Positions 27,270 to 40,365 of a stretch of DNA of 64,000 nucleotides are shown here, piece after piece (the first letter of the stretch is position 1; each line of letters begins with the position of its first letter). Made by a program: the position numbers and the translations under genes. The notes below the pieces were generated by a model. The model ran no database searches, was not told the origin of the DNA, and saw nothing but the letters and a program-made list of their open reading frames with translations. Origin of the DNA: Escherichia coli phage vB_EcoS_Ace; the sequence record MT833283.1, one strand, 5' to 3'.

Positions 27270-27638
27270 TTATATCGCCTGAGTAAATGTACGACTAATA
27301 ACGTCGTTCTGTTGTTCACGCGTCAATGCGTTAAATCGAACAGCATAGCCAGAGACACGGATGGTCAACTGAGGATATTTTTCAGGATGTTTCTGTGCAT
27401 CCAAAAGCTGATCACGGCTTAACACATTGACATTTAGGTGCTGACCACCCTCGACTTGAGGAACCACTTCCACATCTACAATGCGAAAGGCCTCAGGGTC
27501 AAAGTGAGGTGTGATACCTTCTAGATCTTCGACTAGAACTTTCTGTTTAAGTTCACCATCTTTAGAATATAGTTGAATGATCTGATTGTTATGAACAATG
27601 TTAATTACGCCAGACTTAAGACTTTGATATGCTTTCAT
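27270..27638 (-). CDS. grcA: autonomous glycyl-radical cofactor (GrcA/YfiD-like)
   Basis: C-terminal block [11 protein letters not shown]...[20 protein letters not shown] nearly identical to E. coli YfiD as recalled, including glycyl-radical motif RVSGY. Confidence 0.7.
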
Positions 27639-28000
27639 TAGATCTCCCTGATGTTAGAATTTGGCTCAGCTTTTTGTTAACCCAGAAGCAAGATAAAAAC
27701 TGGAAGGCAGGCTTGCTTATTATCTAATCACTAGCTACTGTTGGGGTGCTAGCATTCCGGTGAGATTGATGGTCTCGATTAGATAAATAAGCACTGGAAC
27801 TTTGATTTTAACGTTGCGATCTTCCAGGTCTGTTGCAACTACGTGATTGCTCACGCTAAGACAATGGCTATCTAAAGTCCTAGCTTCTACATTTATACTC
27901 CTGGATAGCATGGAGTTGCAGTCTACTTCCTGCTGTCACGCCCGGCCATTTATAGAATGTGGACTCTCTTCTCAGCAGGATCTGGTACAATGACCTGATC

Positions 28001-28073
28001 CTCTGTTTAGTAGTTAGTAGTGGATTTGAACCACTGTAGTCACTCCATATGAAGGAGGTGCATAACCACTCTG
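28001..28073 (-). tRNA. tRNA-Met or Ile-lysidine (anticodon CAU)
   Basis: cloverleaf by hand; acceptor AGTTAGT/ACTAACT; T-loop TTCAAAT; anticodon loop TTCATAT; CCA not encoded. Confidence 0.6.
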
Positions 28074-28079
28074 CCAACT

Positions 28080-28155
28080 AACTATAATTTGGTACTCCGA
28101 CTTGGGATCGAACCAAGATTTGACGATTATCGGTCGCCTGTTCTAACCTGTTGAA
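28080..28155 (-). tRNA. tRNA-Ile (GAU)
   Basis: cloverleaf by hand; anticodon loop CCGATAA; T-loop TTCGATC; CCA encoded. Confidence 0.65.
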
Positions 28156-28166
28156 CTATCAGAGCA

Positions 28167-28460
28167 TTACATCATTTCATCTAAGTAAGAAGTATACTGG
28201 TATTTAGCTTCACCAGTCTTATCTACTTCTACCTCAGTTCGTGGTACTTTACGAACTAGACCGTGAATCATCTTATAGTTAATAGACTTAGATGGTTCGT
28301 GATCTTTTGGAAAGACTTGTTTAACCGTTACTACTTTGAAGCCTTCACGAGGTGTTAATACAACAACTTGATCACCTTCTTTAATTTTCCAGGACTCAGG
28401 AAATTCATAAGTGTAGCGTTGACCACCCGTTTGGAATACGACAGAAAGATAACGTTTCAT
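28167..28460 (-). CDS. hypothetical protein (97 aa)
   Basis: ORF in track; promoter cassette upstream. Confidence 0.5.
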   Translation of the reverse strand: MKRYLSVVFQTGGQRYTYEFPESWKIKEGDQVVVLTPREGFKVVTVKQVFPKDHEPSKSINYKMIHGLVRKVPRTEVEVDKTGEAKYQYTSYLDEMM

Positions 28461-28490
28461 TTGGTTTCCCTCTCATTAATTTATATAAAT

Positions 28491-28519
28491 ATTATAACAA
28501 GAAATAAGAGAGAAGGCAA
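28491..28519 (-). promoter_or_regulatory. sigma70 promoter (TATAAT / TTGCCT)
   Basis: minus strand; 17-bp spacer. Confidence 0.55.
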
Positions 28520-28534
28520 ATGAATTTTTAAATT

Positions 28535-28609
28535 TGGTGCTCCCACCAGGAATCGAACCCGGTTCAGATGCTTACAAGGCAACTGCATCGCCAGCAATGC
28601 TTTAGGAGC
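28535..28609 (-). tRNA. tRNA-Thr (UGU)
   Basis: cloverleaf by hand; anticodon loop CTTGTAA; one mismatch in anticodon stem. Confidence 0.55.
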
Positions 28610-28776
28610 AATAAACCCATTATTTCAACGGGATTTCTTTTTCATATACAGGAGACTTATATGATATTACTGTCATAGCCAACTGCTGTAGAAATTCGAA
28701 TGAGAGTTTTAAACGCTCTTCTCCTAACCCAACCTCAACGCACTTCATTCGTTTATCTACTTTTAGCTTTAGATTA

Positions 28777-28998
28777 TCAGCCATCTTTGGATTCTCTTTG
28801 CTCAGCTATTGCTAGCCAGTCTGGTAAAAGAAACTTAGTACGAAATTCTTCATATGTTTCTTCTGGATGAAAGCTATAGCCTTGCTTTTCATCATTTAAT
28901 AAAACCGAACCATCTTCTTGCTCATAAGCTCTATATGTTTCACCAATAATTAAAACTCGTCTATTGGGGTTTTTATTACGAAACTCAAAAACGTCCAT
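28777..28998 (-). CDS. hypothetical protein (73 aa)
   Basis: ORF in track, between tRNA genes. Confidence 0.4.
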   Translation of the reverse strand: MDVFEFRNKNPNRRVLIIGETYRAYEQEDGSVLLNDEKQGYSFHPEETYEEFRTKFLLPDWLAIAEQRESKDG

Positions 28999-29014
28999 AA
29001 CGTTTCCTTATATT

Positions 29015-29089
29015 TGGTGCGGGATACGAGAGTCGAACTCGTGTCTACTGGTTGGAAGCCAGTTATTCTAGCCACTGAACTAATCACGC
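29015..29089 (-). tRNA. tRNA-Gly (UCC)
   Basis: cloverleaf by hand; anticodon arm ACTGG-CTTCCAA-CCAGT. Confidence 0.6.
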
Positions 29090-29095
29090 ATAAAT

Positions 29096-29171
29096 TGGCT
29101 GGAGAAGGAGGAATCGAACCTACCATTAACGGAGTCAAAGGCCGTTGTGCTAACCGTTACACTACTCTCCA
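29096..29171 (-). tRNA. tRNA-Gln (UUG)
   Basis: cloverleaf by hand; U1-A72, G73; anticodon loop CTTTGAC. Confidence 0.55.
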
Positions 29172-29177
29172 ATTGTT

Positions 29178-29253
29178 TGGCTGGGATGCCACGGATCGAA
29201 CGTGGAACCTTCGGAGTCAGAGGCCGACGATCTGCCAATTGATCTACATCCCA
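29178..29253 (-). tRNA. tRNA-Gln (CUG)
   Basis: cloverleaf by hand; U1-A72, G73; anticodon loop CTCTGAC. Confidence 0.55.
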
Positions 29254-29260
29254 ATAATTT

Positions 29261-29461
29261 TTATTCTACAGGAACCGTGGCAATTGGATCTGGTTCTTCT
29301 AGACGTTTACCATTATGGTCAACACGAATAATACCACAACCTTCACAGATTACAACAGCACCATAGCCTTCTTTAACTTCGGCTTCTGTAATCAGACCAG
29401 AAAGATCACCAGTATCTTTGCCCCACATATCGATAGAGCATTCTTTGCAGAAATCAGCCAT
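29261..29461 (-). CDS. Cys-rich small protein (66 aa)
   Basis: CKEC...CEGC pairs. Confidence 0.4.
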   Translation of the reverse strand: MADFCKECSIDMWGKDTGDLSGLITEAEVKEGYGAVVICEGCGIIRVDHNGKRLEEPDPIATVPVE

Positions 29462-29485
29462 ATTTTAGTTCCTGTATAAGTTAAT

Positions 29486-29560
29486 TGGTGCATCCTCAGG
29501 GAATCGAACCCCGATCGTAAAGTTCGTAGCTTTACATTCTTTCCGTTGAAATAAGGACGC
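29486..29560 (-). tRNA. tRNA-Arg (ACG)
   Basis: cloverleaf by hand; anticodon arm GTAAAG-CTACGAA-CTTTAC. Confidence 0.6.
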
Positions 29561-29565
29561 ATATT

Positions 29566-29642
29566 TGGGGTGGCTAGTGGAATTCGAATCCACATAGGCC
29601 TGATTCACAATCAGGATCATTAACCAATTATGATATAGCCAC
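29566..29642 (-). tRNA. tRNA-His (GUG)
   Basis: cloverleaf by hand; anticodon arm CCTGA-TTGTGAA-TCAGG; discriminator C. Confidence 0.6.
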
Positions 29643-30007
29643 AATTGAAAACTCGCAGGGTTAGCGAAACCATCCTCAAATAGCATTTTCTAGAATACTA
29701 ATCAAGTTATCTCCTATTGCACGCAGCTCAAGACGAGTACGAATTTTCAATTGTGGCGGCTCTCCGAAACTCTTCTACTCTAGCCTTAGCAGCTTACTCC
29801 CGAACGCATGTCGGGAAAGTCTTACTAAGAGCATCAAATAGCACCGTTACTCTTTGAGCCATTGAATATCAAGAAGCAGAAGGACTTGAACCTTCACGAG
29901 ATAGACCATTTATCTCAGCCTCGTTTTCGGGTATCTTATGAGGAGTGGATGTTCCCCTTACGCCCTTTAGGAAGCCCCGTCTACCGATTCCGGCATACTT
30001 CAAGATT

Positions 30008-30097
30008 TGGCAGAAGATAATGGAGTCGAACCATCACCATATCACTACAGCGGGCCGGTTTTCAAGACCGGTTACGTACCACTACGTCCTATCTTCT
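30008..30097 (-). tRNA. tRNA-Ser (UGA), class II
   Basis: long variable arm; anticodon arm CCGGT-CTTGAAA-ACCGG; acceptor AGAAGAT/ATCTTCT. Confidence 0.6.
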
Positions 30098-30452
30098 ATT
30101 GTTCGTATATTACAAAGTTTACAGATTCAGAGTAATAACCATTACTAGAACCATGCCATTTAACGGTTACACAGCCTTTAGCTGTGGCAAACTTATACCA
30201 TGTATGGGTTACTGAATCCCAATCTTCTGTAGCGTGTGTGATTACTTCCTCTGCTTCTATGATTGGATAACCTAAAAGGTCATGTAAATCACCAATAATA
30301 TCATCTATATGAACATCTTCACAGCAGTCCTGCTCATGATAAAACTTATAGTTCTTACCATCAGTACAAATGAAGATAAGAGTATCCTGGTCTTGGCATA
30401 CACTAGTAAAAATTTTGCCAAGCATTTCATTATAGATTGTCACTTCTGACAT
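30096..30452 (-). CDS. hypothetical protein (118 aa)
   Basis: ORF in track. Confidence 0.45.
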   Translation of the reverse strand: MSEVTIYNEMLGKIFTSVCQDQDTLIFICTDGKNYKFYHEQDCCEDVHIDDIIGDLHDLLGYPIIEAEEVITHATEDWDSVTHTWYKFATAKGCVTVKWHGSSNGYYSESVNFVIYEQ

Positions 30453-30474
30453 ATTAGTTTCCTAGTAAGTTGTT

Positions 30475-30566
30475 TGGCGGAAGAAGAGAGATTCGAACTC
30501 TCAAGCCTGCTTTCACAAGTCAGCCACTTTCCAAGCGGTTTTCGTCACCTATCGATTTGCTCTTCC
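30475..30566 (-). tRNA. class II tRNA, probably tRNA-Ser (GGA)
   Basis: acceptor and T-arm clear; anticodon arm assignment (loop TTGGAAA) tentative; atypical D-arm. Confidence 0.4.
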
Positions 30567-30745
30567 GTAGATCTCAGGATTAAATCATAAACTTCATTAG
30601 CGGATACTGGAAGTATGAGATTATACATCTTTTGGTCATACCTCTGACCATACTCTATAAACACATACTCTTTAGTTAATGTATTAACAGCTAACCAGAT
30701 ATCAGTTATAGGAGTTATAGGAGTTTTCATCATGAGTTGATCCAA
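30545..30745 (-). CDS. hypothetical protein (66 aa)
   Basis: ORF in track. Confidence 0.4.
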   Translation of the reverse strand: MDQLMMKTPITPITDIWLAVNTLTKEYVFIEYGQRYDQKMYNLILPVSANEVYDLILRSTEEQIDR

Positions 30746-30749
30746 TGTT

Positions 30750-30830
30750 TGGTAGGGATGGAGGGACTCGAACCCACACCCGAAGACTAGAACCTAAATC
30801 TAGCGCGTCTGCCAATTTCGCCACATCCCC
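30750..30830 (-). tRNA. tRNA-Leu (UAG) with short UUCG-type variable hairpin
   Basis: anticodon arm CTAGA-TTTAGGT-TCTAG; A73; 81 nt. Confidence 0.5.
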
Positions 30831-30837
30831 ATTTGTT

Positions 30838-30913
30838 TGGTGGAGTCACTCAGAATTGAACTGAGTTCCACTGCTTGCAAGGCAGTAAGTTTAACCAAAT
30901 AACCTATGACCCC
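30838..30913 (-). tRNA. tRNA-Ala (UGC)
   Basis: G3-U70 wobble; anticodon loop CTTGCAA. Confidence 0.6.
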
Positions 30914-30918
30914 GAATT

Positions 30919-30997
30919 TGGTGGAGAATAAGAGATTCGAACTCTTCTGATATCCTCGGTGCAAGCGAGGTGTCCACTCCAAGCAGACCCATTCCCC
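30919..30997 (-). tRNA. second tRNA-Ala (UGC)-like
   Basis: G3-U70; anticodon arm CCTCG-CTTGCAC-CGAGG; 7-nt variable loop. Confidence 0.45.
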
Positions 30998-31006
30998 AAA
31001 ATTTAT

Positions 31007-31270
31007 TTATTCTCTATACATATCGAGAACAGTTGCTACAATCTGAGCTTCTAGCCTAGCAATATCTTTATTCACTATATCAGATTCTACTACTAAGTGA
31101 TTATATATTGCTTCAGTTTTAGCAAGATCTACATCAGATAGTTTATTAAGACTATTATAATACTTAGCATTATTGCAACGTTTCTTCGTATCGGAAACTC
31201 GTTTATGGAGTGTTCTTTGTTGATAACGTTGCGACATTAGTTTCTTAGCCATATCTTTAAGATCAAACAT
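31007..31270 (-). CDS. hypothetical protein (87 aa)
   Basis: ORF in track; fed by promoter 31513-31541 through a ~235-nt leader. Confidence 0.45.
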   Translation of the reverse strand: MFDLKDMAKKLMSQRYQQRTLHKRVSDTKKRCNNAKYYNSLNKLSDVDLAKTEAIYNHLVVESDIVNKDIARLEAQIVATVLDMYRE

Positions 31271-31512
31271 AGATATTCCTTCTAGTTTACTAAGGCTATT
31301 AGCTCGGTGTGCGTATTACCCTCAGACATTAGCCAGTAGAGTATAACCGCTCTTCACAAACCCGATACACTATTCAGTTGCCACTGAATCTAGTGGACTA
31401 ATCTAGAACTTCTCCCAAGTCGTAGGGATCGTGCTTTTGGCAGCCAGCCCTAGGTCGAGCTAATACCTTAGTGAACTTTGATGAGGATTTCTCCTCATCA
31501 ATTTATATAAAT

Positions 31513-31541
31513 ATTATAACAAGAAATTAAGCATCAAGCAA
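31513..31541 (-). promoter_or_regulatory. sigma70 promoter (TATAAT / TTGCTT)
   Basis: minus strand; 17-bp spacer; overlaps 3' end of ORF 31534..31893. Confidence 0.55.
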
Positions 31542-31893
31542 GTACATTTTTAGCAATTTCTTGTAGTTCCTTAACGTCGCTAACGAAAAGGTAATCAGAG
31601 CTTCCAGAGTGCATACTCTGCATAACCACACCATCCTCTGGTGCATCTTCCTTCAAAGTAAGTCCTAACCAGAACTCGGCAAAACTAGGTGTTACCTCAC
31701 CTTGACTTGCCTTGAACACATCACCTTCTGTGATCTCTTGACCAGTAGAGAGTCCCATGTATGGTACGTTCAGATCAATATCTTTGTAGAATTCAGCTAG
31801 ATCTTGTTCGAAGTCCCAACCTTTAGAGATAGCGAACTCCATTGTTACATGACCGAAATAGCCTTGAACCTTGCTTGATAATTGCATTTGCAA
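31534..31893 (-). CDS. hypothetical protein (119 aa)
   Basis: ORF in track. Confidence 0.5.
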   Translation of the reverse strand: MQMQLSSKVQGYFGHVTMEFAISKGWDFEQDLAEFYKDIDLNVPYMGLSTGQEITEGDVFKASQGEVTPSFAEFWLGLTLKEDAPEDGVVMQSMHSGSSDYLFVSDVKELQEIAKNVLA

Positions 31894-31911
31894 TTCCTTA
31901 TTTTGAGTTAA

Positions 31912-31985
31912 TTGGTACTCGGTGATAGAATCGAACTATCGCAACCGCCGTGTAAAGACGGGGTTCTACCATTAAACTAACCGAG
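31912..31985 (-). tRNA. tRNA-Val (UAC)
   Basis: cloverleaf by hand; anticodon loop TTTACAC. Confidence 0.6.
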
Positions 31986-31989
31986 CAAT

Positions 31990-32067
31990 TTGGTGGATTG
32001 CCTGGGATTCGAACCCAGAACTGACGGATTAAAGGTCCGCTACTCTTATCCAGTTGAGCTAGCAATC
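31990..32067 (-). tRNA. tRNA-Lys (UUU)
   Basis: anticodon loop CCTTTAA (C at position 33). Confidence 0.55.
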
Positions 32068-32700
32068 CAATTTTTCTACTAATAATTTAAAAGCATCTAG
32101 TACAGGTACTTCAAACCACTCTCCAGATACTCTATAATCTTTAAGAAGATTATGTAATTCTTTCTCTGTACGTCTTTTATCCGACGAAAATCTGAAATGG
32201 TATAGCTTGTAGTCTCTATTAGGTGAATAAGTTTGATAACTTGCTAACCTCTCATTCACATCTATAGTCATACCTATTTTATACATGCCTGGCCATGCTG
32301 GATTACCAATTACATATATAAAACCTTCCGTTATAGGTATTTTATGCTCCCTTTTATACTTTAAGAGATTTAAGGCTGCCATTCGATAACAGAATCTAAA
32401 CTCTGAAGTTTTTAACTTACCTTCTTTACCCGAAATTTCGTTATATTTGCTCATATAAGCTCTTATGAGCTTATCATCTATAATGAAGTTATCAGGAAGG
32501 TTTAAGGCAGCTAAAACTTTATTAATTAGCATAGACTTCCTTAATAGAGTATCCTTAATAGAGTAGACTTTCAAGTAAGGATGATTGATTCCTAATTCCG
32601 CCATCACTTCGTTTTTATCTTTACCGTAATGGGCTAGTGGATACTTCTTACGATCTTTGCTAGATCGTAGATCACTTACCTTTAAACGAAATAATTTCAT
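32059..32700 (-). CDS. T5orf172-domain protein (GIY-YIG-like), putative homing endonuclease
   Basis: GFIYVIGN...YKIGMT motif; paralog of ORF 35847..36377; embedded in tRNA cluster. Confidence 0.6.
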   Translation of the reverse strand: MKLFRLKVSDLRSSKDRKKYPLAHYGKDKNEVMAELGINHPYLKVYSIKDTLLRKSMLINKVLAALNLPDNFIIDDKLIRAYMSKYNEISGKEGKLKTSEFRFCYRMAALNLLKYKREHKIPITEGFIYVIGNPAWPGMYKIGMTIDVNERLASYQTYSPNRDYKLYHFRFSSDKRRTEKELHNLLKDYRVSGEWFEVPVLDAFKLLVEKLDC

Positions 32701-32721
32701 TTCGAAATCCTTCTATTAAAT

Positions 32722-32799
32722 TGGAAGCGGGTGTAGGAATCGAACCTACCTCTTTCTAGCTTATGAGACTAGCGATCTCTACCAAAGATCTAACCCGCA
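32722..32799 (-). tRNA. tRNA-Met (CAU), possibly initiator-like
   Basis: anticodon loop CTCATAA; U1-U72 mismatch at top of acceptor stem. Confidence 0.55.
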
Positions 32800-32805
32800 A
32801 TTGTT

Positions 32806-32882
32806 TGGTCTCCAATGAAGGACTCGAACCTTCAACCCCACCGCCCCAAACGGTGTACTCTAGCCAATTGAGCTAATCGGAG
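32806..32882 (-). tRNA. tRNA-Pro (UGG)
   Basis: anticodon arm CACCG-TTTGGGG-CGGTG. Confidence 0.6.
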
Positions 32883-32891
32883 AATATTATT

Positions 32892-33089
32892 TTATTGTGG
32901 TGGAATATTAATATTCCGTCCATCTATGCAGTAAATGGTACTAGGAATTGTAGAGTGTATACTGAAGTTTTGTATTTTACTCTCTCCACCACAGAAATTT
33001 TTTGCAAATTCATACTCCTTGTTAATGGTTGAATCAAATTTAAAGCAACCAGTGAGTAAGAATACAGATAGTAACATAACTTTTTTCAT
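32892..33089 (-). CDS. small lipoprotein (65 aa)
   Basis: signal peptide with lipobox LTGC. Confidence 0.45.
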   Translation of the reverse strand: MKKVMLLSVFLLTGCFKFDSTINKEYEFAKNFCGGESKIQNFSIHSTIPSTIYCIDGRNINIPPQ

Positions 33090-33121
33090 TTTGCTTTCCT
33101 TCTCAACACTTTATAAGATAT

Positions 33122-33150
33122 ATTATACAGAGAATTAAGCAAAATAGCAA
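33122..33150 (-). promoter_or_regulatory. sigma70 promoter (TATAAT / TTGCTA)
   Basis: minus strand; 17-bp spacer. Confidence 0.6.
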
Positions 33151-33408
33151 ATGAATTTTTAATAAATTTACTTATTGCGTAGGCCACCTGGAGGGTTCAA
33201 GCCCCACGTCTGACAAAGAAGTTTGCGAGACTTCTCTTAAACGCCAGAATAGACCCGCCGATCTATCGGAACCTACTCAATAAGTAAACTTTCGTTTACC
33301 TACACCTACCTGGTCGGGAGGATTTTCAGCTACTAGAACCGGCCGGAAACTCATCGCCTTGTTTACCTTGTAGTCCCACTATAAGTGACGCGACCTACAA
33401 AGATTTTG

Positions 33409-33479
33409 TGCGGTCGGAGGGAATCGAACCCTCAACTTCTGGTTGGCAACCAAAAATTATACCTTTTAACTACGAACGC
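33409..33479 (-). tRNA. tRNA-Gly (GCC)
   Basis: anticodon arm TTTGG-TTGCCAA-CCAGA; one acceptor mismatch; CCA not encoded. Confidence 0.5.
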
Positions 33480-33692
33480 ATAATGAGTCAATCTAGGTAG
33501 GACTTGAACCTACTATCACTTGTGCGGATTTACGAGAACCATTCTTTCACTCGAATCGAACGAGCTTCTACCCTCGGCAAGCTGGTGTCCCCTCTCCACC
33601 ACGCTAGAATGATAATTAATGCCTGCTCCTTTGAATCAAGAAGTCCACCCCGGACTTTGGGTCTTTGCAGTACATCACGCTGCTCTGATGTT

Positions 33693-33769
33693 TGGTACAC
33701 CCACTAGGACTTGAACCTAGAACCTACCGCTTAAGAGGCGGTAGCTCTAACCAATTGAGCTATGGATGT
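33693..33769 (-). tRNA. tRNA-Lys (CUU)
   Basis: anticodon arm ACCGC-CTCTTAA-GCGGT. Confidence 0.6.
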
Positions 33770-33775
33770 ATAATT

Positions 33776-33850
33776 TGGCGGTACTAAGGGTAATCGAAAC
33801 CCTACCTCTCCCGTGACAGGGGAGTATCCTAACCGTTAGACTATAGTACC
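33776..33850 (-). tRNA. tRNA-Asp (GUC)
   Basis: anticodon arm CTCCC-CTGTCAC-GGGAG. Confidence 0.65.
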
Positions 33851-34371
33851 TTTAACTTTTTAAGTTCTTTAGGATTGCCTCCTAAAGAAGTGTATCTTTT
33901 ACGCAACCCATTATCTGAATAACTTAACTTTCTCCCTGCACCTGACCAGCCTAGCTCTCTTACTGTAACCTCGATTATTTCTTTAGTTATAGAGATATCT
34001 TTTGGTTTATGTGAAGAGCACTCCTGACATTTTTCAGCTTTTAAAGAAATAGCTTTACCACAATCCTTACAACAATTATCATGGTTTAGTTTACTAAATC
34101 CTTTATCTTTTAAAGTCTTTTCTAGATGCTGCTCTTTTGTGAGCACTTGTAAGTTATTAAGACCCCAATAAGTAATGTCTGTGTTAATATGGTCAACTTC
34201 TAGTTCAGAGTCTAGACTTGGTAATTTCTTAAATGCACATGCTAAAATCCTATGTACACCAGTATTTCTCTGTTGACCATTTTTATGGAGACGTATAGAT
34301 AAGTATCCGTAATTACTGGTTATTGGGGTTAGTATTTTGTTTGATTTGATACTAAATACTAACCCATCCAA
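33841..34371 (-). CDS. HNH homing endonuclease (176 aa)
   Basis: HNH motif (VHRILACAF...EVDHIN...N...H); within tRNA cluster, as for T5 F-Tfl endonucleases as recalled. Confidence 0.65.
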   Translation of the reverse strand: MDGLVFSIKSNKILTPITSNYGYLSIRLHKNGQQRNTGVHRILACAFKKLPSLDSELEVDHINTDITYWGLNNLQVLTKEQHLEKTLKDKGFSKLNHDNCCKDCGKAISLKAEKCQECSSHKPKDISITKEIIEVTVRELGWSGAGRKLSYSDNGLRKRYTSLGGNPKELKKLKVL

Positions 34372-34425
34372 ACTTACTAAGTACTTCTCAAACCCTGGAA
34401 TGGGTAAGGATATTCAGTGCATAAT

Positions 34426-34611
34426 TTACTCAGTTTTGAGTTTTTCGATAGCTTCCTCAACCTCTTTTAGAGCTTCACGACGCTCTACTTGACCTTGAAG
34501 TTCTTCAAGAAGTTCAGCTTTCAGAGCCTTAATAATATTACCACGAACCTTAATATTATTAATCAGATTATCACGATCAGCTTCTAGTCGAGCAATTGCA
34601 CGAGTTGTCAT
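34426..34611 (-). CDS. coiled-coil protein (61 aa)
   Basis: ORF in track. Confidence 0.35.
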   Translation of the reverse strand: MTTRAIARLEADRDNLINNIKVRGNIIKALKAELLEELQGQVERREALKEVEEAIEKLKTE

Positions 34612-34714
34612 ATCTATTTCCTCAGTTGTTAATGAAAAATGGTATCTGTGACTGAATTCGATATCAGCAATGATAGCTGGTTGGCTACCGGTTTACTTAA
34701 CTCTACACAGAATA

Positions 34715-34797
34715 TGGCGGGCCGTGTAGGATTCGAACCTACGTTGTCTTTCGACATGGATTAACAGTCCACCGCCAAACCGCTTGGCTAACGACCC
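34715..34797 (-). tRNA. class II-like tRNA with anticodon GUU (Asn)
   Basis: 3-bp D-stem and 13-nt variable hairpin (Tyr-like scaffold) but anticodon loop CTGTTAA and discriminator G. Confidence 0.45.
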
Positions 34798-34804
34798 TAA
34801 AATT

Positions 34805-34880
34805 TGGACGACCGCATGAGATTCGAACTCACATAAGGAGGTTTTGCAGGCCTCCGCCTAAGCCATTCAGCCAACGGTCG
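34805..34880 (-). tRNA. tRNA-Cys (GCA)
   Basis: anticodon loop CTGCAAA. Confidence 0.55.
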
Positions 34881-35058
34881 ATTTATCTTGCTTTTCGAGA
34901 TTAGTAAACTCTAGATCTATAGAATGTCCTATAGATCTAGCATAATAGCCATCTCCAGCATCATAGCCTGACTTACCACACTCACACATCTTAAACTCTC
35001 TATAACGAGTGAAAATATGTTCAGAACCACAACACTTAAATTTAACTAACATTTTCAT
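34867..35058 (-). CDS. Cys-containing small protein (63 aa)
   Basis: ORF in track; CC...CEC motif. Confidence 0.4.
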   Translation of the reverse strand: MKMLVKFKCCGSEHIFTRYREFKMCECGKSGYDAGDGYYARSIGHSIDLEFTNLEKQDKSTVG

Positions 35059-35297
35059 TTAACACGCTCCGGTAAATCTTCGAGTTTATATTGAGTAGCC
35101 ACATTAGCAGCATCTAGTAACAAACCCATATGTTTAAGAATCCTAGTGATAGCCTCGCCTTCTGCTTCTTCTACAAAAGTGCGTAGTTGAATGAAGTCAA
35201 TACCACCATCCATACCAGAGAAAATGTTAAGTAAGCGAAGCATTACCAGCTTACGTTCTTTCAGTTCTTGTTCTATCATGTTGCTTCTCCAGTTCAA
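35055..35297 (-). CDS. hypothetical protein (80 aa)
   Basis: ORF in track; promoter cassette upstream. Confidence 0.5.
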   Translation of the reverse strand: MNWRSNMIEQELKERKLVMLRLLNIFSGMDGGIDFIQLRTFVEEAEGEAITRILKHMGLLLDAANVATQYKLEDLPERVK

Positions 35298-35308
35298 TTT
35301 ATGTAATA

Positions 35309-35337
35309 ATTATACAGAACTTTAAGGATTTAAGCAA
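35309..35337 (-). promoter_or_regulatory. sigma70 promoter (TATAAT / TTGCTT)
   Basis: minus strand; 17-bp spacer. Confidence 0.6.
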
Positions 35338-35668
35338 CTACATTTTTCAGAAATTTGATGCCTTTCTTACACTTCTTATACCACCACGTCTTAGAGTTTT
35401 GTCGATTATGAACGCTTGAGATCTTCGCCTCATTAAAGTGCTTCAAAAGCATATAATCAGCCCCTAATTGCTCAAGTGGAATGTGATCTCCACTAGAATC
35501 ATAAACATAAGGCCGTTGATTAGCTCTGTAGTGATATACCTTATTAATCCGGCGTTTAAGCAAAGGACTAGTACAGTATATAAAGAAGTTTTTAGGATGC
35601 ATCAGCATCTCCTTCAAAATTGGTGCACCCCGTTGGTAACGATCCAACCTCTCAAGCTCTTCAGGCAA
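35330..35668 (-). CDS. hypothetical protein (112 aa)
   Basis: ORF in track. Confidence 0.45.
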   Translation of the reverse strand: MPEELERLDRYQRGAPILKEMLMHPKNFFIYCTSPLLKRRINKVYHYRANQRPYVYDSSGDHIPLEQLGADYMLLKHFNEAKISSVHNRQNSKTWWYKKCKKGIKFLKNVVA

Positions 35669-35786
35669 GCGCTAATCCATCTCAGCTAAAGGTGCAAATA
35701 TTGGCAAACCTACTAGGACTCGAACCTAGACCGTACGGTTTTGGAGACCGACATGCTGTCCAGTAACACTCTAGGAATGCAGAAAT

Positions 35787-35861
35787 TGGTATTCTCACAC
35801 GGATTCGAACCGAGATTTCTGGAGTGAAGTTCCAGTGACCTAACCATTAGTCGATGAGAAC
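35787..35861 (-). tRNA. tRNA-Glu (UUC)
   Basis: anticodon arm CTGGA-ACTTCAC-TCCAG; one T-stem mismatch. Confidence 0.5.
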
Positions 35862-36377
35862 ATTATATTCTTTTGCTTTCTCTAATTTTAGAAAAGACTT
35901 TAATTCTTCTAAGTTAATTATATTAAACCATTCACCTTCTAGTGCAAAAGGTTTAAGAAACTTATGTATTTTTGATTCTACCGCACGTCTATCGGAGTAG
36001 AATTGATAGTGCTCCAGAGTAAAATCTCTGTAAGGACTATATGTTTGATATGACCTCAGTCTTTCATGGACATTTACTGTCATACCTATTTTGTAACAAT
36101 TAGGCCATGCTTTATTGCCAATAACATATACCATACCTTCATACACAGGTAATTTATGCGCTTGTTTATACTGAATAAGATTTAAAGCAGAAATTCTATC
36201 ATACTGCATTATTCTTTTAGTATTCTTCTTTTCAGTACAAGTACCTTTTATCTCATTATAGATTTCTCGATATTTAGCAAGTAAATCTACATCAATAACA
36301 AAAGGTATAGTAGGAGAGATAATATCTCTTTCCTCCATAGCGCTAATTACTATTTTTGGTATATCTGGTATTGCCAT
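35847..36377 (-). CDS. T5orf172-domain protein (GIY-YIG-like), putative homing endonuclease
   Basis: EGMVYVIGN...YKIGMT...GEWF motifs; paralog of 32059..32700. Confidence 0.6.
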   Translation of the reverse strand: MAIPDIPKIVISAMEERDIISPTIPFVIDVDLLAKYREIYNEIKGTCTEKKNTKRIMQYDRISALNLIQYKQAHKLPVYEGMVYVIGNKAWPNCYKIGMTVNVHERLRSYQTYSPYRDFTLEHYQFYSDRRAVESKIHKFLKPFALEGEWFNIINLEELKSFLKLEKAKEYNVLID

Positions 36378-36398
36378 TTTTAGACCTTAGTTAAATTT

Positions 36399-36486
36399 GG
36401 TGGGCGTTAATGGAGTCGAACCACTCGAGTCGCAATGACCAGGGATTTACAATCCCCTCCGCTACCACTTACGGAATAAACGCCCA
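36399..36486 (-). tRNA. tRNA-Tyr (GUA), class II
   Basis: long variable arm; anticodon arm GGGGA-TTGTAAA-TCCCT; A73. Confidence 0.6.
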
Positions 36487-36616
36487 TATTTAGAAGTATT
36501 CAAAAAATTCTCATTTAAACACTTTTAAATATGTTTCCAAATTAGATAACTATTATATCAAGTTTTATGGCACTGAGCAAGTCAGATTTTAAAGAACTTG
36601 CTCAGTGCTGTATTAG

Positions 36617-36892
36617 TTAGTCGAACTTAGGAGTGACAGTTAAGGAGAACGGAAGTTCAAAAACTTCTTCACCCTCATCACTAACAGTGATTACCCGACC
36701 CTCTAACTTATTCATGCTAATCTCAACATCAGCCGTAGCATCTGGAGCCATGCCAGCTTCAACACATTTAGCTTTAATTTCCGGCAGAAGTTCTACATCA
36801 TAGAAATAAAGCCATTCAATCTCACCTTCCCAGCCTTCCCAGGATTTACAGATTGCACTTTCAATACCAGTTGTTATAACACGATTTTGCAT
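36617..36892 (-). CDS. hypothetical protein (91 aa)
   Basis: ORF in track; promoter cassette upstream. Confidence 0.5.
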   Translation of the reverse strand: MQNRVITTGIESAICKSWEGWEGEIEWLYFYDVELLPEIKAKCVEAGMAPDATADVEISMNKLEGRVITVSDEGEEVFELPFSLTVTPKFD

Positions 36893-36922
36893 TCGTTAAC
36901 TCCTTCATCAATTTATATAACT

Positions 36923-36952
36923 ATTATAACAGAAATCTTAAGTAAAAAGCAA
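36923..36952 (-). promoter_or_regulatory. sigma70 promoter (TATAAT / TTGCTT, 18-bp spacer)
   Basis: minus strand. Confidence 0.55.
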
Positions 36953-36982
36953 GTACATTTTTAAAATTTCTGCTTGGAGGAG

Positions 36983-37255
36983 TTAAACTCCTGATTCTTC
37001 AGCCAGATCAAGCCCAACCAACGTGATTGCCATAATAGCCGCGCCATGTTCCTTCTCTCCTAGCTCTTTAGCTTGAGTGAGAATATTGAGGAATTGCTTT
37101 TGAAAATCTGTAACTTCTTCTGTCATGCCTGCTTCAGCAATAATTCCTTTCAGCATAAAGCGTTGTGCCGTAATTTCAGGATTAGCCATTTGTTTTCTCC
37201 AGTTATTTAGAATGTAAGCCAAACTTAGGATCATAGCGATCATAAGTCGTACCAT
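36983..37255 (-). CDS. hypothetical protein (90 aa)
   Basis: ORF in track. Confidence 0.45.
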   Translation of the reverse strand: MVRLMIAMILSLAYILNNWRKQMANPEITAQRFMLKGIIAEAGMTEEVTDFQKQFLNILTQAKELGEKEHGAAIMAITLVGLDLAEESGV

Positions 37256-37341
37256 TAGTTGAAGCCTTGATGCTATGAAAACGACAGTACATAAATTTAC
37301 GTAGTGCTTTATTAATAGCTTTCATTTTATTTCCTTTTATT

Positions 37342-37418
37342 TGGTAGGGGTGGTGGGATTCGAACCCACAAAACCTGAATTTTAAGTCCAGTACCTATGC
37401 CAATTCGATTACACCCCC
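37342..37418 (-). tRNA. tRNA-Leu (UAA)-like with class I architecture
   Basis: anticodon arm CTGGA-CTTAAAA-TTCAG; A73; only 4-nt variable loop; D-arm atypical. Confidence 0.4.
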
Positions 37419-37426
37419 ATGTAATC

Positions 37427-37768
37427 TTAGCGAATCTCTAAACCCTGGAAATATCGAGGGAATGGAGAGCCAACTTCAAAATTAATACCCCAATTAAGTT
37501 CAACGAGTTCAGATTTATTAAGATCCAGACCATTACCTTCAAAGATATAGCCGTAAACCGCAGGGAACATAGCTGCTAGATCTTCCATATCGGAATGAGC
37601 ATTGTGTTCTTCACGAAACTGCTCAAACTCTTCAAAGAACTTTTCTAGGAAGAACTCTGGTACAATGAACGTTACTACATCTGTGGTATCATCAATACGA
37701 TAGATGGTAGCTTGGAATAGACCTACACCTAAAAGGTTGACTGCCGGAGTTGTAAAAATATCCATTTT
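37427..37768 (-). CDS. acidic hypothetical protein
   Basis: track ORF 37427..37876 trimmed to internal Met that overlaps the upstream stop. Confidence 0.4.
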   Translation of the reverse strand, partial: KMDIFTTPAVNLLGVGLFQATIYRIDDTTDVVTFIVPEFFLEKFFEEFEQFREEHNAHSDMEDLAAMFPAVYGYIFEGNGLDLNKSELVELNWGINFEVGSPFPRYFQGLEIR

Positions 37769-37952
37769 AGCCTCGCTCAATATCAAAAGAAATTGCATAA
37801 TTAGGGTTAATGCCAGAACCTTTACAGGTAGGACATTCCCATTCGTTATAGAAAATGTCCCCAGGTTCAGCATCATTTTGAGTGCCAGAACCCCAACATT
37901 CAGTACACATACATTCTTCTAGCTCTTGAGCAATTTCTCGAAAGCGTGACAT
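37767..37952 (-). CDS. zinc-ribbon protein (61 aa)
   Basis: CxxC...CxxC (CTEC, CPTC). Confidence 0.45.
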   Translation of the reverse strand: MSRFREIAQELEECMCTECWGSGTQNDAEPGDIFYNEWECPTCKGSGINPNYAISFDIERG

Positions 37953-37969
37953 ATAGTCTCCTAATTAAT

Positions 37970-38047
37970 TGGTGGCTCCCGGAGGATTCGAACCTACCTA
38001 CCTTTCGCTTATGAGGCGACGGCTCATACCAAATGAGCTTGAGAACC
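37970..38047 (-). tRNA. tRNA-Met or Ile-lysidine (CAU)
   Basis: anticodon loop CTCATAA; D-arm GCTCA...TGAGC. Confidence 0.55.
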
Positions 38048-38052
38048 AAATC

Positions 38053-38146
38053 TGGAGGAAGATGCCAGATTCGAACTGGCACACCGTGTTTCCACAGCTA
38101 CTGGCTGTTTAGCAAACAGCTCCCTTACCATTAGGGTTAATCTTCC
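38053..38146 (-). tRNA. tRNA-Ser (GCU), class II
   Basis: anticodon arm GCTGT-TTGCTAA-ACAGC; long variable arm; acceptor GGAAGAT/ATCTTCC. Confidence 0.65.
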
Positions 38147-38160
38147 GAATTTATGAATAT

Positions 38161-38189
38161 ATTATACAGAAAATTTCGACATTAAGCAA
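38161..38189 (-). promoter_or_regulatory. sigma70 promoter (TATAAT / TTGCTT) reading into tRNA cluster
   Basis: minus strand; 17-bp spacer; next downstream genes are tRNA-Ser(GCU) and tRNA-Met. Confidence 0.6.
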
Positions 38190-38197
38190 GTGAAATT

Positions 38198-38494
38198 TTA
38201 CTGAACCTTGCACTGATATACTTGTTTGATACGTGTCACTGACTTCTTAGTTGGATTGATAGAAGAACCCTGCCACCAACGTGATTCTGAGCTGAGAACA
38301 GTACCAGGAACAGCTTGTTCTTTTGGCAGAACAATATCAAAACACTGTTCACCCATATTATCTTTAATGTGCGACCAAATGTCTAGAGTAAATCGTTCTA
38401 GCTTATTACAAACTTGAACTTGACAAAGTTCCTGTTGTGGAGCAGCAAATACAGAAGTAGATACTAGAGTCAATGCAAGTACAATGCGTTTCAT
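38198..38494 (-). CDS. secreted protein
   Basis: track ORF trimmed to Met after SD; N-terminal signal peptide. Confidence 0.5.
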   Translation of the reverse strand: MKRIVLALTLVSTSVFAAPQQELCQVQVCNKLERFTLDIWSHIKDNMGEQCFDIVLPKEQAVPGTVLSSESRWWQGSSINPTKKSVTRIKQVYQCKVQ

Positions 38495-38524
38495 ATTTGA
38501 TTCCTCTCTCAAATTTATAAATAT

Positions 38525-38553
38525 ATTATACAGAAATTTTCTATATTAAGCAA
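38525..38553 (-). promoter_or_regulatory. sigma70 promoter (TATAAT / TTGCTT)
   Basis: minus strand; 17-bp spacer. Confidence 0.6.
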
Positions 38554-38571
38554 GTGAAAATTTCTGTATAA

Positions 38572-38591
38572 TAGCCCTCGCTTAGAGGGCT
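38572..38591 (-). terminator. GC hairpin, possible terminator after pnuC
   Basis: stem AGCCCTC/GAGGGCT immediately 3' of pnuC stop; U-tract weak. Confidence 0.35.
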
Positions 38592-38600
38592 ATAGCTACT

Positions 38601-40335: not shown

Positions 40336-40365
40336 GTTTGATTCCTCTCTCAAATTTATAAATAT

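What the first reader, a model, noticed from the sequence alone, without database searches (positions are those of the whole stretch)
29877..35729. Orphan tRNA T-arm hairpins without acceptor stems inside the tRNA/homing-endonuclease cluster
At 29877-29895, 33497-33513, 33549-33565 and 35713-35729 the plus strand carries the reverse-complement signature of a tRNA T-arm (5-bp stem, loop TTCRANT), but I could not find a complementary 5' acceptor strand within 60-100 nt even allowing G-U pairs. They lie beside HNH or T5orf172 endonuclease genes. They may be tRNA remnants left by endonuclease-mediated rearrangement, processing or termination signals that mimic tRNA 3' halves, or tRNAs with non-canonical acceptors. 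No tRNA-Phe or tRNA-Trp was found among the complete folds, so two of these could be atypical versions of those genes.
Basis: seen in the sequence. Interest (0 to 1): 0.5.

Follow-up and report, generated by a model that had tools for sequence, protein, structure and literature searches.

The report
Phage T5 tRNA-shaped RNAs, not orphans
The four "orphan" hairpins belong to one ordinary tRNA-Trp gene and to two long-annotated but functionally unexplained phage T5 RNAs (RNA1 and rna2), which are complete tRNA-shaped molecules whose anticodon loop is replaced by a conserved structured insert.

Summary
The window is a T5-like phage whose tRNA cluster reads on the minus strand. All four T-arm hairpins are real: 27 strict matches in the window against 0.3 expected by chance. 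The claim that they lack acceptor stems is wrong.

- **Site 4** is the T-arm of an ordinary tRNA-Trp. tRNA-Phe lies next to it.
- **Site 1** is the T-arm of the homologue of T5 "RNA1".
- **Sites 2 and 3** both lie inside the homologue of T5 "rna2".

GenBank annotates T5 RNA1 as "tRNA-like RNA with unknown functions". Covariation shows that each is a full tRNA shell: acceptor, D-arm, anticodon stem and T-arm, plus a long variable arm in RNA1. A 48-55 nt structured insert replaces the anticodon loop. About 98% of pair cells form standard pairs, against 28-53% when the partners are slid. Neither RNA matches Rfam, ARAGORN calls neither, and neither encodes the 3' CCA that 28 of 30 neighbouring tRNAs encode.

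RNA1 was found only in T5-like phages. The rna2 insert is nearly invariant in T4-like Acinetobacter phages and in metagenomic phages, while every stem around it has changed.

The best reading is a natural "tRNA scaffold" carrying a cargo domain of unknown function. The elements are already known. Their function is open, and the conserved cargo makes it testable.

The parts
29871..30002 (-). RNA1 homologue. A 132-nt tRNA-shaped RNA of class II type with a long variable arm. The equivalent of the T5 annotation spans 29861-30004.
   Evidence: It is 82-88% identical to the misc_RNA 'RNA1' of T5 (AY692264) and of phage 5 (AJ604531, note 'tRNA-like RNA with unknown functions'). The structure is supported on MAFFT alignment A5 of 30 distinct sequences: 97.8% paired, 14 pairs changed on both sides, 0 of 500 shuffles reach the observed value for 4 of the 5 measures. 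RNAalifold gives the same fold apart from the D region.
29879..29895 (-). RNA1 T-arm, GAAGG UUCAAGU CCUUC.
   Evidence: Found in the census. It is helix 7.
29996..30001 (-). RNA1 acceptor 5' strand, GAAGUA. It pairs with 29873-29878 (UGCUUC). Position 1 (30002) faces U131 as a U.U mismatch.
   Evidence: Helix 1. Four of its six pairs change on both sides, for example GGAAUA/UGUUCC in T5 and GGAGUA/UACUCC in L124.
29923..29970 (-). RNA1 cargo. A 48-nt insert closed by the anticodon-stem analogue (29971-29975 with 29918-29922). It contains stem P-a and hairpin P-b, whose loop ACAUCCAC is conserved in 29 of 30 sequences.
   Evidence: Helices 3, 4 and 5. The anticodon-stem analogue covaries as GCUUC/GAGGC, GCUGC/GCGGC and ACUGC/GCGGU.
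29898..29916 (-). RNA1 long variable arm, GAGAU AAAUGGUCU AUCUC. The loop is invariant.
   Evidence: Helix 6. Variants are GAGUU/AACUC, GAGCU/AGCUC and AAGAU/AUCUU.
33489..33610 (-). rna2 homologue. A 122-nt tRNA-shaped RNA of class I type with a 55-nt cargo.
   Evidence: It is 88% identical to the misc_RNA 'rna2' of T5 AY692264. It scores 142.6 bits with model R1. The structure is supported on A4: 98.0% paired, 23 of 29 pairs changed on both sides, 0 of 500 shuffles.
33497..33513 (-). rna2 true T-arm, GUAGG UUCAAGU CCUAC. It is followed by the acceptor 3' strand at 33490-33496.
33549..33565 (-). Inner T-arm-like hairpin of the rna2 cargo, (G)CUCG UUCGAUU CGAG(U).
   Evidence: Helix 4. Three of its four pairs change on both sides: CUCG/CGAG, UUGG/CCAA, AUGG/CCAU, CCCG/CGGG and ACGG/CCGU.
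33523..33577 (-). rna2 cargo. It consists of CCGAGGGUAGAAG, the inner T-like hairpin, and the near-invariant linker UGAAAGAAUGGUUCnCGUAAAUCCGCA. It is closed by the anticodon-stem analogue (33578-33582 with 33518-33522).
   Evidence: The linker is conserved between T5-like phages, T4-like Acinetobacter phages and metagenomic phages, while all stems differ.
33604..33610 (-). rna2 acceptor 5' strand, AUUCUAG. It pairs with 33490-33496 (CUAGAUU). U2.U71 is a mismatch in this window.
   Evidence: Helix 1, where all 7 pairs change on both sides. Examples are L004 GACUUUG/CAAAGUC and L024 ACUGACC/GGUCAGU.
35702..35778 (-). Ordinary tRNA-Trp(cca).
   Evidence: ARAGORN, Rfam 36.3 bits, and annotation as tRNA-Trp in relatives.
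It has an atypical T loop (AUCGUUA), two U.U mismatches in the anticodon stem, and an encoded CCA.
   Evidence: Rfam RF00005 33.4 bits. Annotated tRNA-Phe in identical relatives. The anticodon was read directly from the sequence.

Best explanation
Sites 1 to 3 belong to two small non-decoding RNAs. They are the orthologues of the phage T5 features RNA1 and rna2.

Each RNA is a complete tRNA shell: an acceptor stem, a D-arm with the GG of the D loop, an anticodon-stem analogue, and a canonical T-arm. RNA1 also has a class-II long variable arm. In both, the 7-nt anticodon loop is replaced by a conserved, structured cargo of 48 nt (RNA1) or 55 nt (rna2).

Shown here: the homology, the architecture, the covariation, the absence of an anticodon loop, the absence of an encoded CCA, the co-orientation and close packing with tRNA genes, and the distribution of the families.

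Inferred: they are transcribed as part of the minus-strand polycistronic tRNA precursors. Because they look like tRNAs, the host tRNA-maturation enzymes cut them out (RNase P at the 5' end and the usual 3' trimming). The L-shaped shell protects them from decay. This is the same principle as the engineered 'tRNA scaffold' used to express foreign RNAs in E. coli.

The working part is the cargo, displayed where the anticodon would be. It cannot decode. It most likely binds a conserved host or phage factor, for example as a decoy for an enzyme or defence nuclease that grips tRNAs by the anticodon end. This last step is speculation.

Site 4 is simply tRNA-Trp.

The confidence given applies to the identity, the architecture and the scaffold-type biogenesis. 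The decoy function on its own would rate about 0.2.
For: - **Homology and synteny.** Both RNAs match the annotated T5 and phage-5 features. The order tRNA-Ser, RNA1, RNAI, RNAIII, tRNA-His is kept.
- **rna2 structure.** 98.0% of pair cells form standard pairs, against 28-46% when the partners are slid. 23 of 29 pairs change on both sides, and 0 of 500 shuffles reach the observed values.
- **RNA1 structure.** On a structure-blind MAFFT alignment, 97.8% of cells pair, against 42-53% when slid. 14 pairs change on both sides. RNAalifold independently returns the same helices apart from the D region.
- **tRNA likeness of the shell.** Ordinary tRNAs score 25-35 bits on the rna2 model across its full length by deleting the cargo.
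- **Not tRNAs.** Neither element is called by ARAGORN or matches any Rfam family at E<=1.
- **3' ends.** 28 of 30 tRNAs in the window encode CCA. RNA1 and rna2 do not.
- **Cargo more constrained than shell.** About 27 nt of the rna2 linker are nearly identical in Demerecviridae, Acinetobacter Straboviridae (Acj133, ZZ1, L006), Serratia Kamaji and metagenomic contigs L004, L018, L024 and L142, while all stems differ.
- **Reduced shell in one lineage.** In Acj133 the element fills the spacer between tRNA-Gly and tRNA-Cys. It has a reduced 5' part and only 4 nt after its T-arm, so processing of the flanking tRNAs would define its ends. This fits a shell whose role is processing.
- **Phage-only.** Two scans of 185,579 bacterial and archaeal species genomes found no true member except one 167-kb contig that is probably a phage.
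- **Scaffold principle.** The engineered tRNA scaffold is documented in PMC3753655.
Against: - No expression, end-mapping or processing data were available for this phage. The GenBank notes call RNAI, RNAIII and RNA2H 'stable RNA', but they call RNA1 only 'tRNA-like RNA with unknown functions', and rna2 has no note.
- The RNA1 acceptor has only 6 good pairs, and the Sugarlandvirus copies have a weaker one.
- The MFE z-scores of the single sequences are unremarkable: -1.17 for RNA1 and +0.86 for the rna2 region.
- The short second hairpin proposed in the rna2 linker rests on invariant G-C pairs and one one-sided change, so it is untested.
- The A4 alignment was fitted to the model, so its pair counts lean towards the structure.
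- No conserved partner gene was found next to rna2, so nothing points to a particular target.
- The decoy idea has no direct support.
Confidence: 0.75

Rival explanations
1. They are tRNA remnants or pseudogenes left by rearrangement mediated by homing endonucleases, and they are decaying neutrally.
For: They lie in a cluster rich in T5orf172/HNH genes. The cluster's gene content varies between relatives. Weak tRNA-like elements do exist, for example 42921-42992 at 29.7 bits.
Against: All helices are kept by compensatory changes in hundreds of genomes. The non-tRNA insert is the best conserved part, and it is shared across phage families that otherwise differ in every stem. Neutral decay would destroy the pairing and the insert first.
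Confidence: 0.04
2. They are purely cis-acting punctuation. The tRNA-like folds only direct RNase P/RNase E cleavage or termination to separate neighbouring RNAs and mRNAs, and the excised piece has no function of its own.
For: They are tightly packed between tRNAs and other stable RNAs. The Acj133 copy is literally a tRNA-tRNA spacer. The RNA1 T-arm followed by a U-rich acceptor strand is flagged as terminator-like by a simple scan.
Against: Processing needs only an acceptor/T-arm minihelix. It does not explain a D-arm, an anticodon stem, or a 27-nt sequence held nearly constant across phage families. L004 carries rna2 with no tRNA within about 3.7-6.5 kb on the fetched 10-kb locus. The 'terminator' T-run is the covarying acceptor strand, and terminator and promoter counts are near chance.
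Confidence: 0.12
3. They are intron-containing or otherwise atypical decoding tRNAs, possibly the 'missing' Phe or Trp, that become functional after the insert is removed.
For: The shell is a full cloverleaf. One relative's record labels the RNA1 locus tRNA-Phe (H37).
Against: tRNA-Phe and tRNA-Trp are present as normal genes. The insert ends do not leave a consistent 7-nt loop with U33 across lineages (CUAAAGG.., CGAAUAGG.. and CUAACGAG.. in RNA1). At 48-55 nt the insert is far below group I intron size. No intron or ribozyme family of Rfam matches. No CCA is encoded, unlike 28 of 30 neighbouring tRNAs.
Confidence: 0.03
4. The regions encode small proteins. ORFs at 29869-30003 (44 aa) and 33530-33700 (56 aa) lie on the minus strand, and several GenBank records annotate 'hypothetical protein' there.
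For: The ORFs exist. Annotations exist in some records.
Against: One-nucleotide indels separate lineages inside both elements (A5 column 77, and the D loop of rna2). The substitutions are paired stem changes rather than third-codon-position changes. The ORFs use TTG and GTG starts and are not kept in divergent members.
Confidence: 0.02

Closest known systems
Phage T5 'RNA1' and 'rna2' (misc_RNA features of GenBank AY692264 and AJ604531, the T5/phage 5 tRNA gene region)
   Same: They are direct orthologues, 82-88% identical, with the same position among the same neighbours (tRNA-Ser, RNA1, RNAI, RNAIII, tRNA-His, and rna2 upstream of RNAIV). The GenBank note for RNA1 reads 'tRNA-like RNA with unknown functions'.
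   Different: Nothing essential differs. In this window the ORF between tRNA-Ser and RNA1 is absent, a tRNA-Gly(gcc) lies between rna2 and RNAIV, and the rna2 acceptor carries one U.U mismatch. The records give no structure or function. The scaffold-plus-cargo model and the distribution outside T5-like phages come from this analysis.
Phage T4 species 1 RNA (rnaC), a small stable RNA in the T4 tRNA cluster
   Same: It is the same kind of object: a ~140-nt RNA encoded at the end of a phage tRNA cluster, ending in a canonical T-arm plus a 7-bp acceptor-like stem, with no assigned function in the record.
   Different: It is not the same family. The rna2 model scores it at only 11.4 bits, through the T-arm and acceptor alone, and the cargo sequence is not shared. 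rnaD has no T-arm.
Engineered 'tRNA scaffold' for recombinant RNA expression in E. coli (PMC3753655)
   Same: The design is identical. The acceptor stem, T-arm and D-arm are kept, and the anticodon stem-loop is turned into an insertion site closed by a stem. The paper attributes the success of such stable-RNA-based expression to recognition by the cellular machinery, precise processing, modification and escape from 3' polyadenylation, and it states that the embedded RNA is protected by the tRNA scaffold.
   Different: The scaffold is man-made and carries arbitrary cargo. Here the design is natural and the cargo is a specific, conserved domain. The similarity is an analogy of mechanism, not a shared family.
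Canonical tRNA (Rfam RF00005)
   Same: Acceptor, D, anticodon-stem and T helices are in the standard order. The T loop is UUCRANU and the D loop contains GG. Real tRNAs align end to end with the rna2 model.
   Different: There is no 7-nt anticodon loop and no anticodon. There is no Rfam hit at E<=1 and no ARAGORN call. No CCA is encoded, unlike 28 of 30 tRNAs in the same cluster.

Membership tests
Canonical tRNA (RF00005) | Acceptor stem of 7 bp closing the molecule | tested here: met
   rna2 has 7 pairs, all covarying, with one U.U mismatch in the window. RNA1 has 6 covarying pairs plus a U1.U131 mismatch.
Canonical tRNA (RF00005) | T-arm with a 5-bp stem and a UUCRANN loop, and a D-arm with GG in its loop | tested here: met
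   The D stems are 5 bp in rna2 and 3 bp in RNA1, which is class-II-like.
Canonical tRNA (RF00005) | Seven-nucleotide anticodon loop with U33 and an anticodon | tested here: not met
   The anticodon-stem analogue encloses 48 nt (RNA1) or 55 nt (rna2) of structured insert.
Canonical tRNA (RF00005) | Score at or above the Rfam gathering threshold (29 bits), or an ARAGORN call | tested here: not met
   There is no hit at E<=1 over 29861-30004 or 33487-33611, and no ARAGORN call. Site 4 (tRNA-Trp) does meet the test, at 36.3 bits.
T5 RNA1 (annotated misc_RNA) | Sequence homology to the annotated feature over its full length, and the same neighbours | tested here: met
   82% identity to T5 over 144 nt and about 88% to phage 5. 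It is flanked by tRNA-Ser and by RNAI/RNAIII/tRNA-His.
T5 rna2 (annotated misc_RNA) | Sequence homology to the annotated feature, and the shared structure model | tested here: met
   88% identity over 125 nt. It scores 142.6 bits on model R1, and T5's own copy scores 145.2 bits.
T5 RNA1/rna2 | Accumulates as a discrete RNA in infected cells | not testable with these tools
   Only GenBank notes are available. They say 'stable RNA' for RNAI, RNAIII and RNA2H, not for RNA1 or rna2.
T4 species 1 RNA (rnaC) | Homology in sequence and structure | tested here: not met
   Model R1 with filters off gives 11.4 bits, with only the T-arm and acceptor aligned.
tmRNA | tRNA-like domain plus a tag-peptide reading frame, detected by ARAGORN or Rfam | tested here: not met
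   ARAGORN reports no tmRNA and Rfam gives no hit. The only AUG-initiated frame in the rna2 linker is not conserved in length or sequence between lineages (read from the sequences).
Group I intron-containing tRNA, or a self-cleaving ribozyme insert | Insert matching an intron or ribozyme family and leaving a 7-nt anticodon loop | tested here: not met
   No Rfam intron or ribozyme hit. The inserts are 48-55 nt. The loop ends are inconsistent between lineages.
Bacterial Y RNA (YrlA), a tRNA-like module | Match to the Rfam YrlA/Y RNA models; an Rsr-binding stem | tested here: not met
   No Rfam hit at E<=1. Rsr binding is not testable here.
tRNA-scaffold design (analogy, not a family) | Acceptor, D and T arms retained, with the anticodon stem-loop replaced by an insert closed by a stem | tested here: met
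   The definition is taken from PMC3753655.

The most novel reading that the evidence does not exclude
The rna2 cargo (CGAGGGUAG, a T-loop hairpin, and UGAAAGAAUGGUUCnCGUAAAUCCGCA) is an ancient, phage-specific functional RNA module, displayed on a tRNA scaffold. It is shared by otherwise unrelated phage families (Demerecviridae, Straboviridae and uncultured phages). It acts in trans on a factor common to many Proteobacteria, for example as a decoy or inhibitor for a tRNA-directed defence nuclease, or as a modulator of a tRNA-processing or translation component. RNA1 would be a second, Demerecviridae-specific cargo on the same kind of scaffold. Together they would define a class of natural tRNA-scaffolded effector RNAs that Rfam does not represent.
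Probability: 0.3. Interest if true: 0.7.

Novelty: already known. Interest (0 to 1): 0.38.

Why it matters
As a scan finding, this is mostly a clean-up. One site is an ordinary tRNA-Trp, and the other three belong to T5 RNA1 and rna2, which have been annotated in GenBank for about two decades.

The value lies in what remains open. These RNAs are present in more than 400 sequenced T5-like phages. They are usually unannotated or mis-annotated as hypothetical proteins, tRNA-Phe, tRNA-Sec or tRNA-OTHER. They have no Rfam family and no known function.

Both RNAs turn out to be full tRNA shells carrying a conserved cargo in place of the anticodon loop. The rna2 cargo is held almost constant across unrelated phage families and is absent from bacterial genomes. 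That gives a concrete, testable handle: mutate the cargo but not the shell, pull down its partners, and challenge the phage with tRNA-targeting defences. This addresses an old question about why phage tRNA clusters carry tRNA-like 'stable RNAs'.

It would also improve annotation, through two new covariance models, and it gives a natural precedent for the engineered tRNA scaffold.

Tried and rejected
- **Rfam.** Permissive thresholds over 27500-42500 and 42400-43600 gave nothing for RNA1 or rna2. Only tRNAs and noise appeared.
- **T4 rnaC/rnaD as homologues of rna2.** Motifs seen by eye in the same order (GCCGAG-UAG, GUUCG, AUAUGGUU) were not supported by the model, which gave 11.4 bits through the T-arm and acceptor only.
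- **A conserved partner gene next to rna2.** ORFs around L004, L018, L024, L054, L006, L003 and L055 share nothing consistent. Only ZZ1 and L006 share a small RF-1-domain protein, and T5-likes lack it.
- **Host origin of the cargo.** Two scans of the bacterial and archaeal genome collection found none, apart from one probable phage contig.
- **Shell derived from a tRNA of the same phage.** Global alignment of the cargo-less shells to the window's 30 tRNAs gave only weak scores. The best matches were Leu(tag) for RNA1 and Trp/Met for rna2.
- **A mini-ORF in the rna2 linker (AUG GUU CUC GUA AAU CCG...).** Rejected. The variable position n is a second codon position, and the stop is not conserved (sequences).
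- **Complementarity of the linker to the 23S sarcin-ricin loop (8 bp, by eye from memory).** Rejected. This is the level expected by chance, and the variable n falls inside the duplex.
- **UGGU in the rna2 linker and the RNA1 variable loop pairing with NCCA-3' ends, as in T-box or RNase P.** Recorded as an idea only. The motif is invariant, so covariation cannot test it, and the RNA1 discriminator does not fit.
- **Distant RNA1 relatives.** A scan of viral contigs with the two invariant loops gave 62 loci. By a motif screen (D-loop GGTA plus T-loop GTTCRA), all hits outside Demerecviridae were chance matches.
- **Literature.** Four full-text searches found no paper characterising T5 RNA1 or rna2. 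The original 1980s papers are not in the library.

Full report
**What the window is.** The region 29600-34000 matches 566 phage records, nearly all T5-like phages of Salmonella, Escherichia and Klebsiella (Demerecviridae), at up to 98% identity. ARAGORN finds 29 tRNA genes between 28010 and 41856, all on the minus strand. Rfam confirms them and adds one more at 35624-35695.

**Checking the observation.** A strict search used a 5-bp stem with G-U allowed, a closing G-C pair, and loop TTCRANN. It finds exactly 27 hairpins in the 64-kb window, all in minus-strand sense. Shuffles of the sequence give 0.285 on average and never more than 3. Twenty-three lie in called tRNAs. One of these is 35713-35729, which is the T-arm of tRNA-Trp(cca) 35702-35778, so site 4 is an ordinary tRNA. 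The neighbouring Rfam-only hit at 35624-35695 has the anticodon loop CUGAAGA and an encoded CCA. It is annotated tRNA-Phe in identical relatives.

**Identity of sites 1 to 3.** BLAST of 29865-30007 finds 492 phage records. In most the region is unannotated, and in a few it is called a hypothetical protein or tRNA-Phe. T5 (AY692264) also annotates it as RNA1. BLAST of 33485-33620 finds 424 records, and in T5 it falls on the misc_RNA "rna2". Mapping all T5 features onto the window gives these coordinates:
- RNA1: 29861-30004
- RNAI: 29754-29860
- RNAIII: 29644-29749
- rna2: 33487-33611
- RNAIV: 33176-33276
- part of RNA2H: 31354-31465

Sites 2 and 3 are two hairpins of one RNA.

**Architecture of rna2.** Comparison with divergent copies shows the fold directly. 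An Acinetobacter T4-like phage (Acj133) has a partial match in an unannotated spacer between tRNA-Gly and tRNA-Cys. Both T-arm-like stems differ from the window's by compensatory changes, yet the ~27-30-nt linker between them is almost identical. Pattern scans of the viral, metagenome and genome collections added further copies:
- L004, a 164-kb viral contig
- L006, a 170-kb viral contig
- L018 and L024, metagenome contigs
- Serratia phage Kamaji, Yersinia phage phiR2-01 and Acinetobacter phage ZZ1
- L142, a 167-kb contig in a "bacterium" bin

Read 5' to 3', all full-length copies have the following order:
1. a 7-bp acceptor stem
2. a D-arm whose loop contains GG
3. a 5-6-bp stem in the position of the anticodon stem
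4. an insert of about 55 nt
5. a short variable region
6. a canonical T-arm
7. the acceptor 3' strand

The insert consists of CGAGGGUAG, a 4-bp hairpin with a perfect T-loop (UUCGAUU), and UGAAAGAAUGGUUCnCGUAAAUCCGCA.

I built a covariance model from five sequences using this structure. It separates 44 true members (68-149 bits) from everything else in 720 kb of held sequence. Ordinary tRNAs score 25-35 bits over the whole model by skipping the insert, so the shell really is tRNA-like. On the alignment of 26 distinct members, 98.0% of pair cells are standard pairs, against 28-46% when the partners are slid by 1-3 columns. 23 of 29 pairs show changes on both sides, and no shuffle out of 500 reaches any of the observed measures. 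That alignment was fitted to the model, so the counts lean towards the structure. The compensatory changes are nevertheless visible in the raw sequences. In window coordinates the acceptor is 33604-33610 with 33490-33496. It has one U.U mismatch here and is perfect in most relatives.

**Architecture of RNA1.** The same logic holds. Thirty distinct sequences align without structural guidance. My hand-derived structure has these parts:
- a 6-bp acceptor
- a class-II-type D-arm, CCG GAAUCGGUAGA CGG
- a 5-bp anticodon-stem analogue enclosing a 48-nt insert with two helices
- a long variable arm
- the T-arm

It has 97.8% of cells paired, against 42-53% when slid. Fourteen pairs change on both sides, and 0 of 500 shuffles reach the observed value on four of five measures. 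RNAalifold predicts the same helices on its own, except in the D region. Two loops are conserved: ACAUCCAC in the insert (29 of 30 sequences) and AAAUGGUCU in the variable arm (all 30). A scan anchored on those loops found true copies only in Demerecviridae, including Sugarlandvirus and one divergent contig, L124.

**What they are not.**
- Neither matches any of 4227 Rfam families at E<=1. ARAGORN sees no tRNA or tmRNA there.
- They have no 7-nt anticodon loop. The ends of the inserts do not leave a consistent loop between lineages, and the inserts are far too short for group I introns.
- 28 of the 30 tRNAs of this window encode their 3' CCA, but RNA1 and rna2 do not.
- The overlapping small ORFs are contradicted by 1-nt indels between lineages and by the paired pattern of substitutions.
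- They are not decaying remnants, because the insert is the most conserved part.
- T4 rnaC is the same general kind of RNA: a T-arm plus a 7-bp acceptor at the end of a ~140-nt RNA in a tRNA cluster. It is not a member of the rna2 family, scoring 11.4 bits through the T-arm and acceptor only.

**How they most likely work.** The following is shown: a full tRNA shell under selection, a cargo under stronger selection displayed at the anticodon end, co-orientation and tight packing with tRNA genes, no encoded CCA, and a phage-only distribution.

The following is inferred. The shell makes the host's tRNA-maturation enzymes excise the RNA precisely from the polycistronic precursor, and it protects the RNA from decay. 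This is the principle exploited by the engineered tRNA scaffold, in which the anticodon stem-loop of a tRNA is replaced by an arbitrary RNA (PMC3753655). The Acj133 copy fits this reading. It has lost most of the 5' shell and has only 4 nt after its T-arm, so its ends would be set by processing of the two flanking tRNAs, yet its cargo is intact.

What the cargo does is unknown. It is conserved in phages of Enterobacteria, Serratia, Yersinia, Acinetobacter and uncultured hosts. This suggests a target common to many Proteobacteria. A plausible but unsupported guess is a decoy for something that holds tRNAs by the anticodon end. No conserved neighbouring gene points to a partner.

**Context claims.** T5orf172/MUG113-type genes lie at 32059-32700 and 35847-36377, and there is a weak HNH_3 match at 33841-34371. 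The sites are therefore indeed near homing-endonuclease-like genes. Promoter-like sites are at the chance level. The only terminator-like call at a site is the RNA1 T-arm followed by its own acceptor strand, which covaries as a stem.

**Verdict.** The hairpins are real, but the reading "orphan, without acceptor" is not right. One site is tRNA-Trp. The other three belong to two already annotated T5 RNAs of unknown function. What this analysis adds is a covariation-backed model, a tRNA scaffold plus cargo, for both RNAs. It also shows that the rna2 cargo is shared, nearly unchanged, with T4-like Acinetobacter phages and other uncultured phages, and is absent from bacterial genomes. The elements are known. 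Their function is an old open question that these results make easier to test.

Noticed in passing
Rfam scores it as a marginal tRNA (29.7 bits against a threshold of 29), with two mispaired acceptor positions and an odd 18-nt anticodon region. It encodes no CCA. Relatives annotate the locus variously as tRNA-Sec, tRNA-OTHER, hypothetical protein, or nothing.
   Followed up: partly
window 29644-29860 (-): These are homologues of the T5 'stable RNAs' RNAI (29754-29860) and RNAIII (29644-29749), packed directly between RNA1 and tRNA-His. They are better conserved across T5-likes (94-98%) than RNA1 (82-88%). RNAI has a terminal stem GGCUC/GAGCC followed by GCCA, which resembles a tRNA acceptor end. 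RNAIII has a ~12-bp terminal stem. Neither has an Rfam match.
   Followed up: partly
window 33176-33276 (-) and 31354-31465 (-): These are homologues of T5 RNAIV (93% identity) and of the first 113 nt of RNA2H (95%). Both are further unannotated, unexplained RNAs of the tRNA region. In this window a tRNA-Gly(gcc) (33408-33479) lies between rna2 and RNAIV, unlike in T5.
   Followed up: no
window 28010-28083 (-) and 33408-33479 (-): tRNA-Met (28010-28083) and tRNA-Gly(gcc) are the only two of the 30 tRNAs that do not encode a 3' CCA. All the others end in NCCA, usually followed by A-rich sequence.
   Followed up: no
window 35624-35695 (-): ARAGORN misses tRNA-Phe(GAA). It has two U.U mismatches in the anticodon stem and an unusual T loop (AUCGUUA instead of UUCRANN). 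Rfam scores it at 33.4 bits.
   Followed up: partly
L054 1628-1858 (Acinetobacter phage ZZ1) and L006 1278-1508 (-): Both Acinetobacter T4-like phages encode a homologous 76-aa protein in the tRNA region. ZZ1 annotates it as 'RF-1 domain peptide chain release factor'. The GGQ motif appears to be absent (GKHSNW in its place, by eye). In ZZ1 the gene starts 19 nt after the rna2-like element.
   Followed up: partly
L142 (contig CAVJPU010000002.1, 167,038 bp, binned as 'bacterium isolate H07650-L1_cleanbin_000012'): This contig carries a true rna2-family member (72.6 bits) and has the size of a T4-like phage genome. It is probably a phage contig placed in a bacterial bin.
   Followed up: no
window 30096-30452 (-): The 118-aa ORF next to tRNA-Ser matches Pfam DUF7448 strongly (92 bits). 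Its function is unknown.
   Followed up: no
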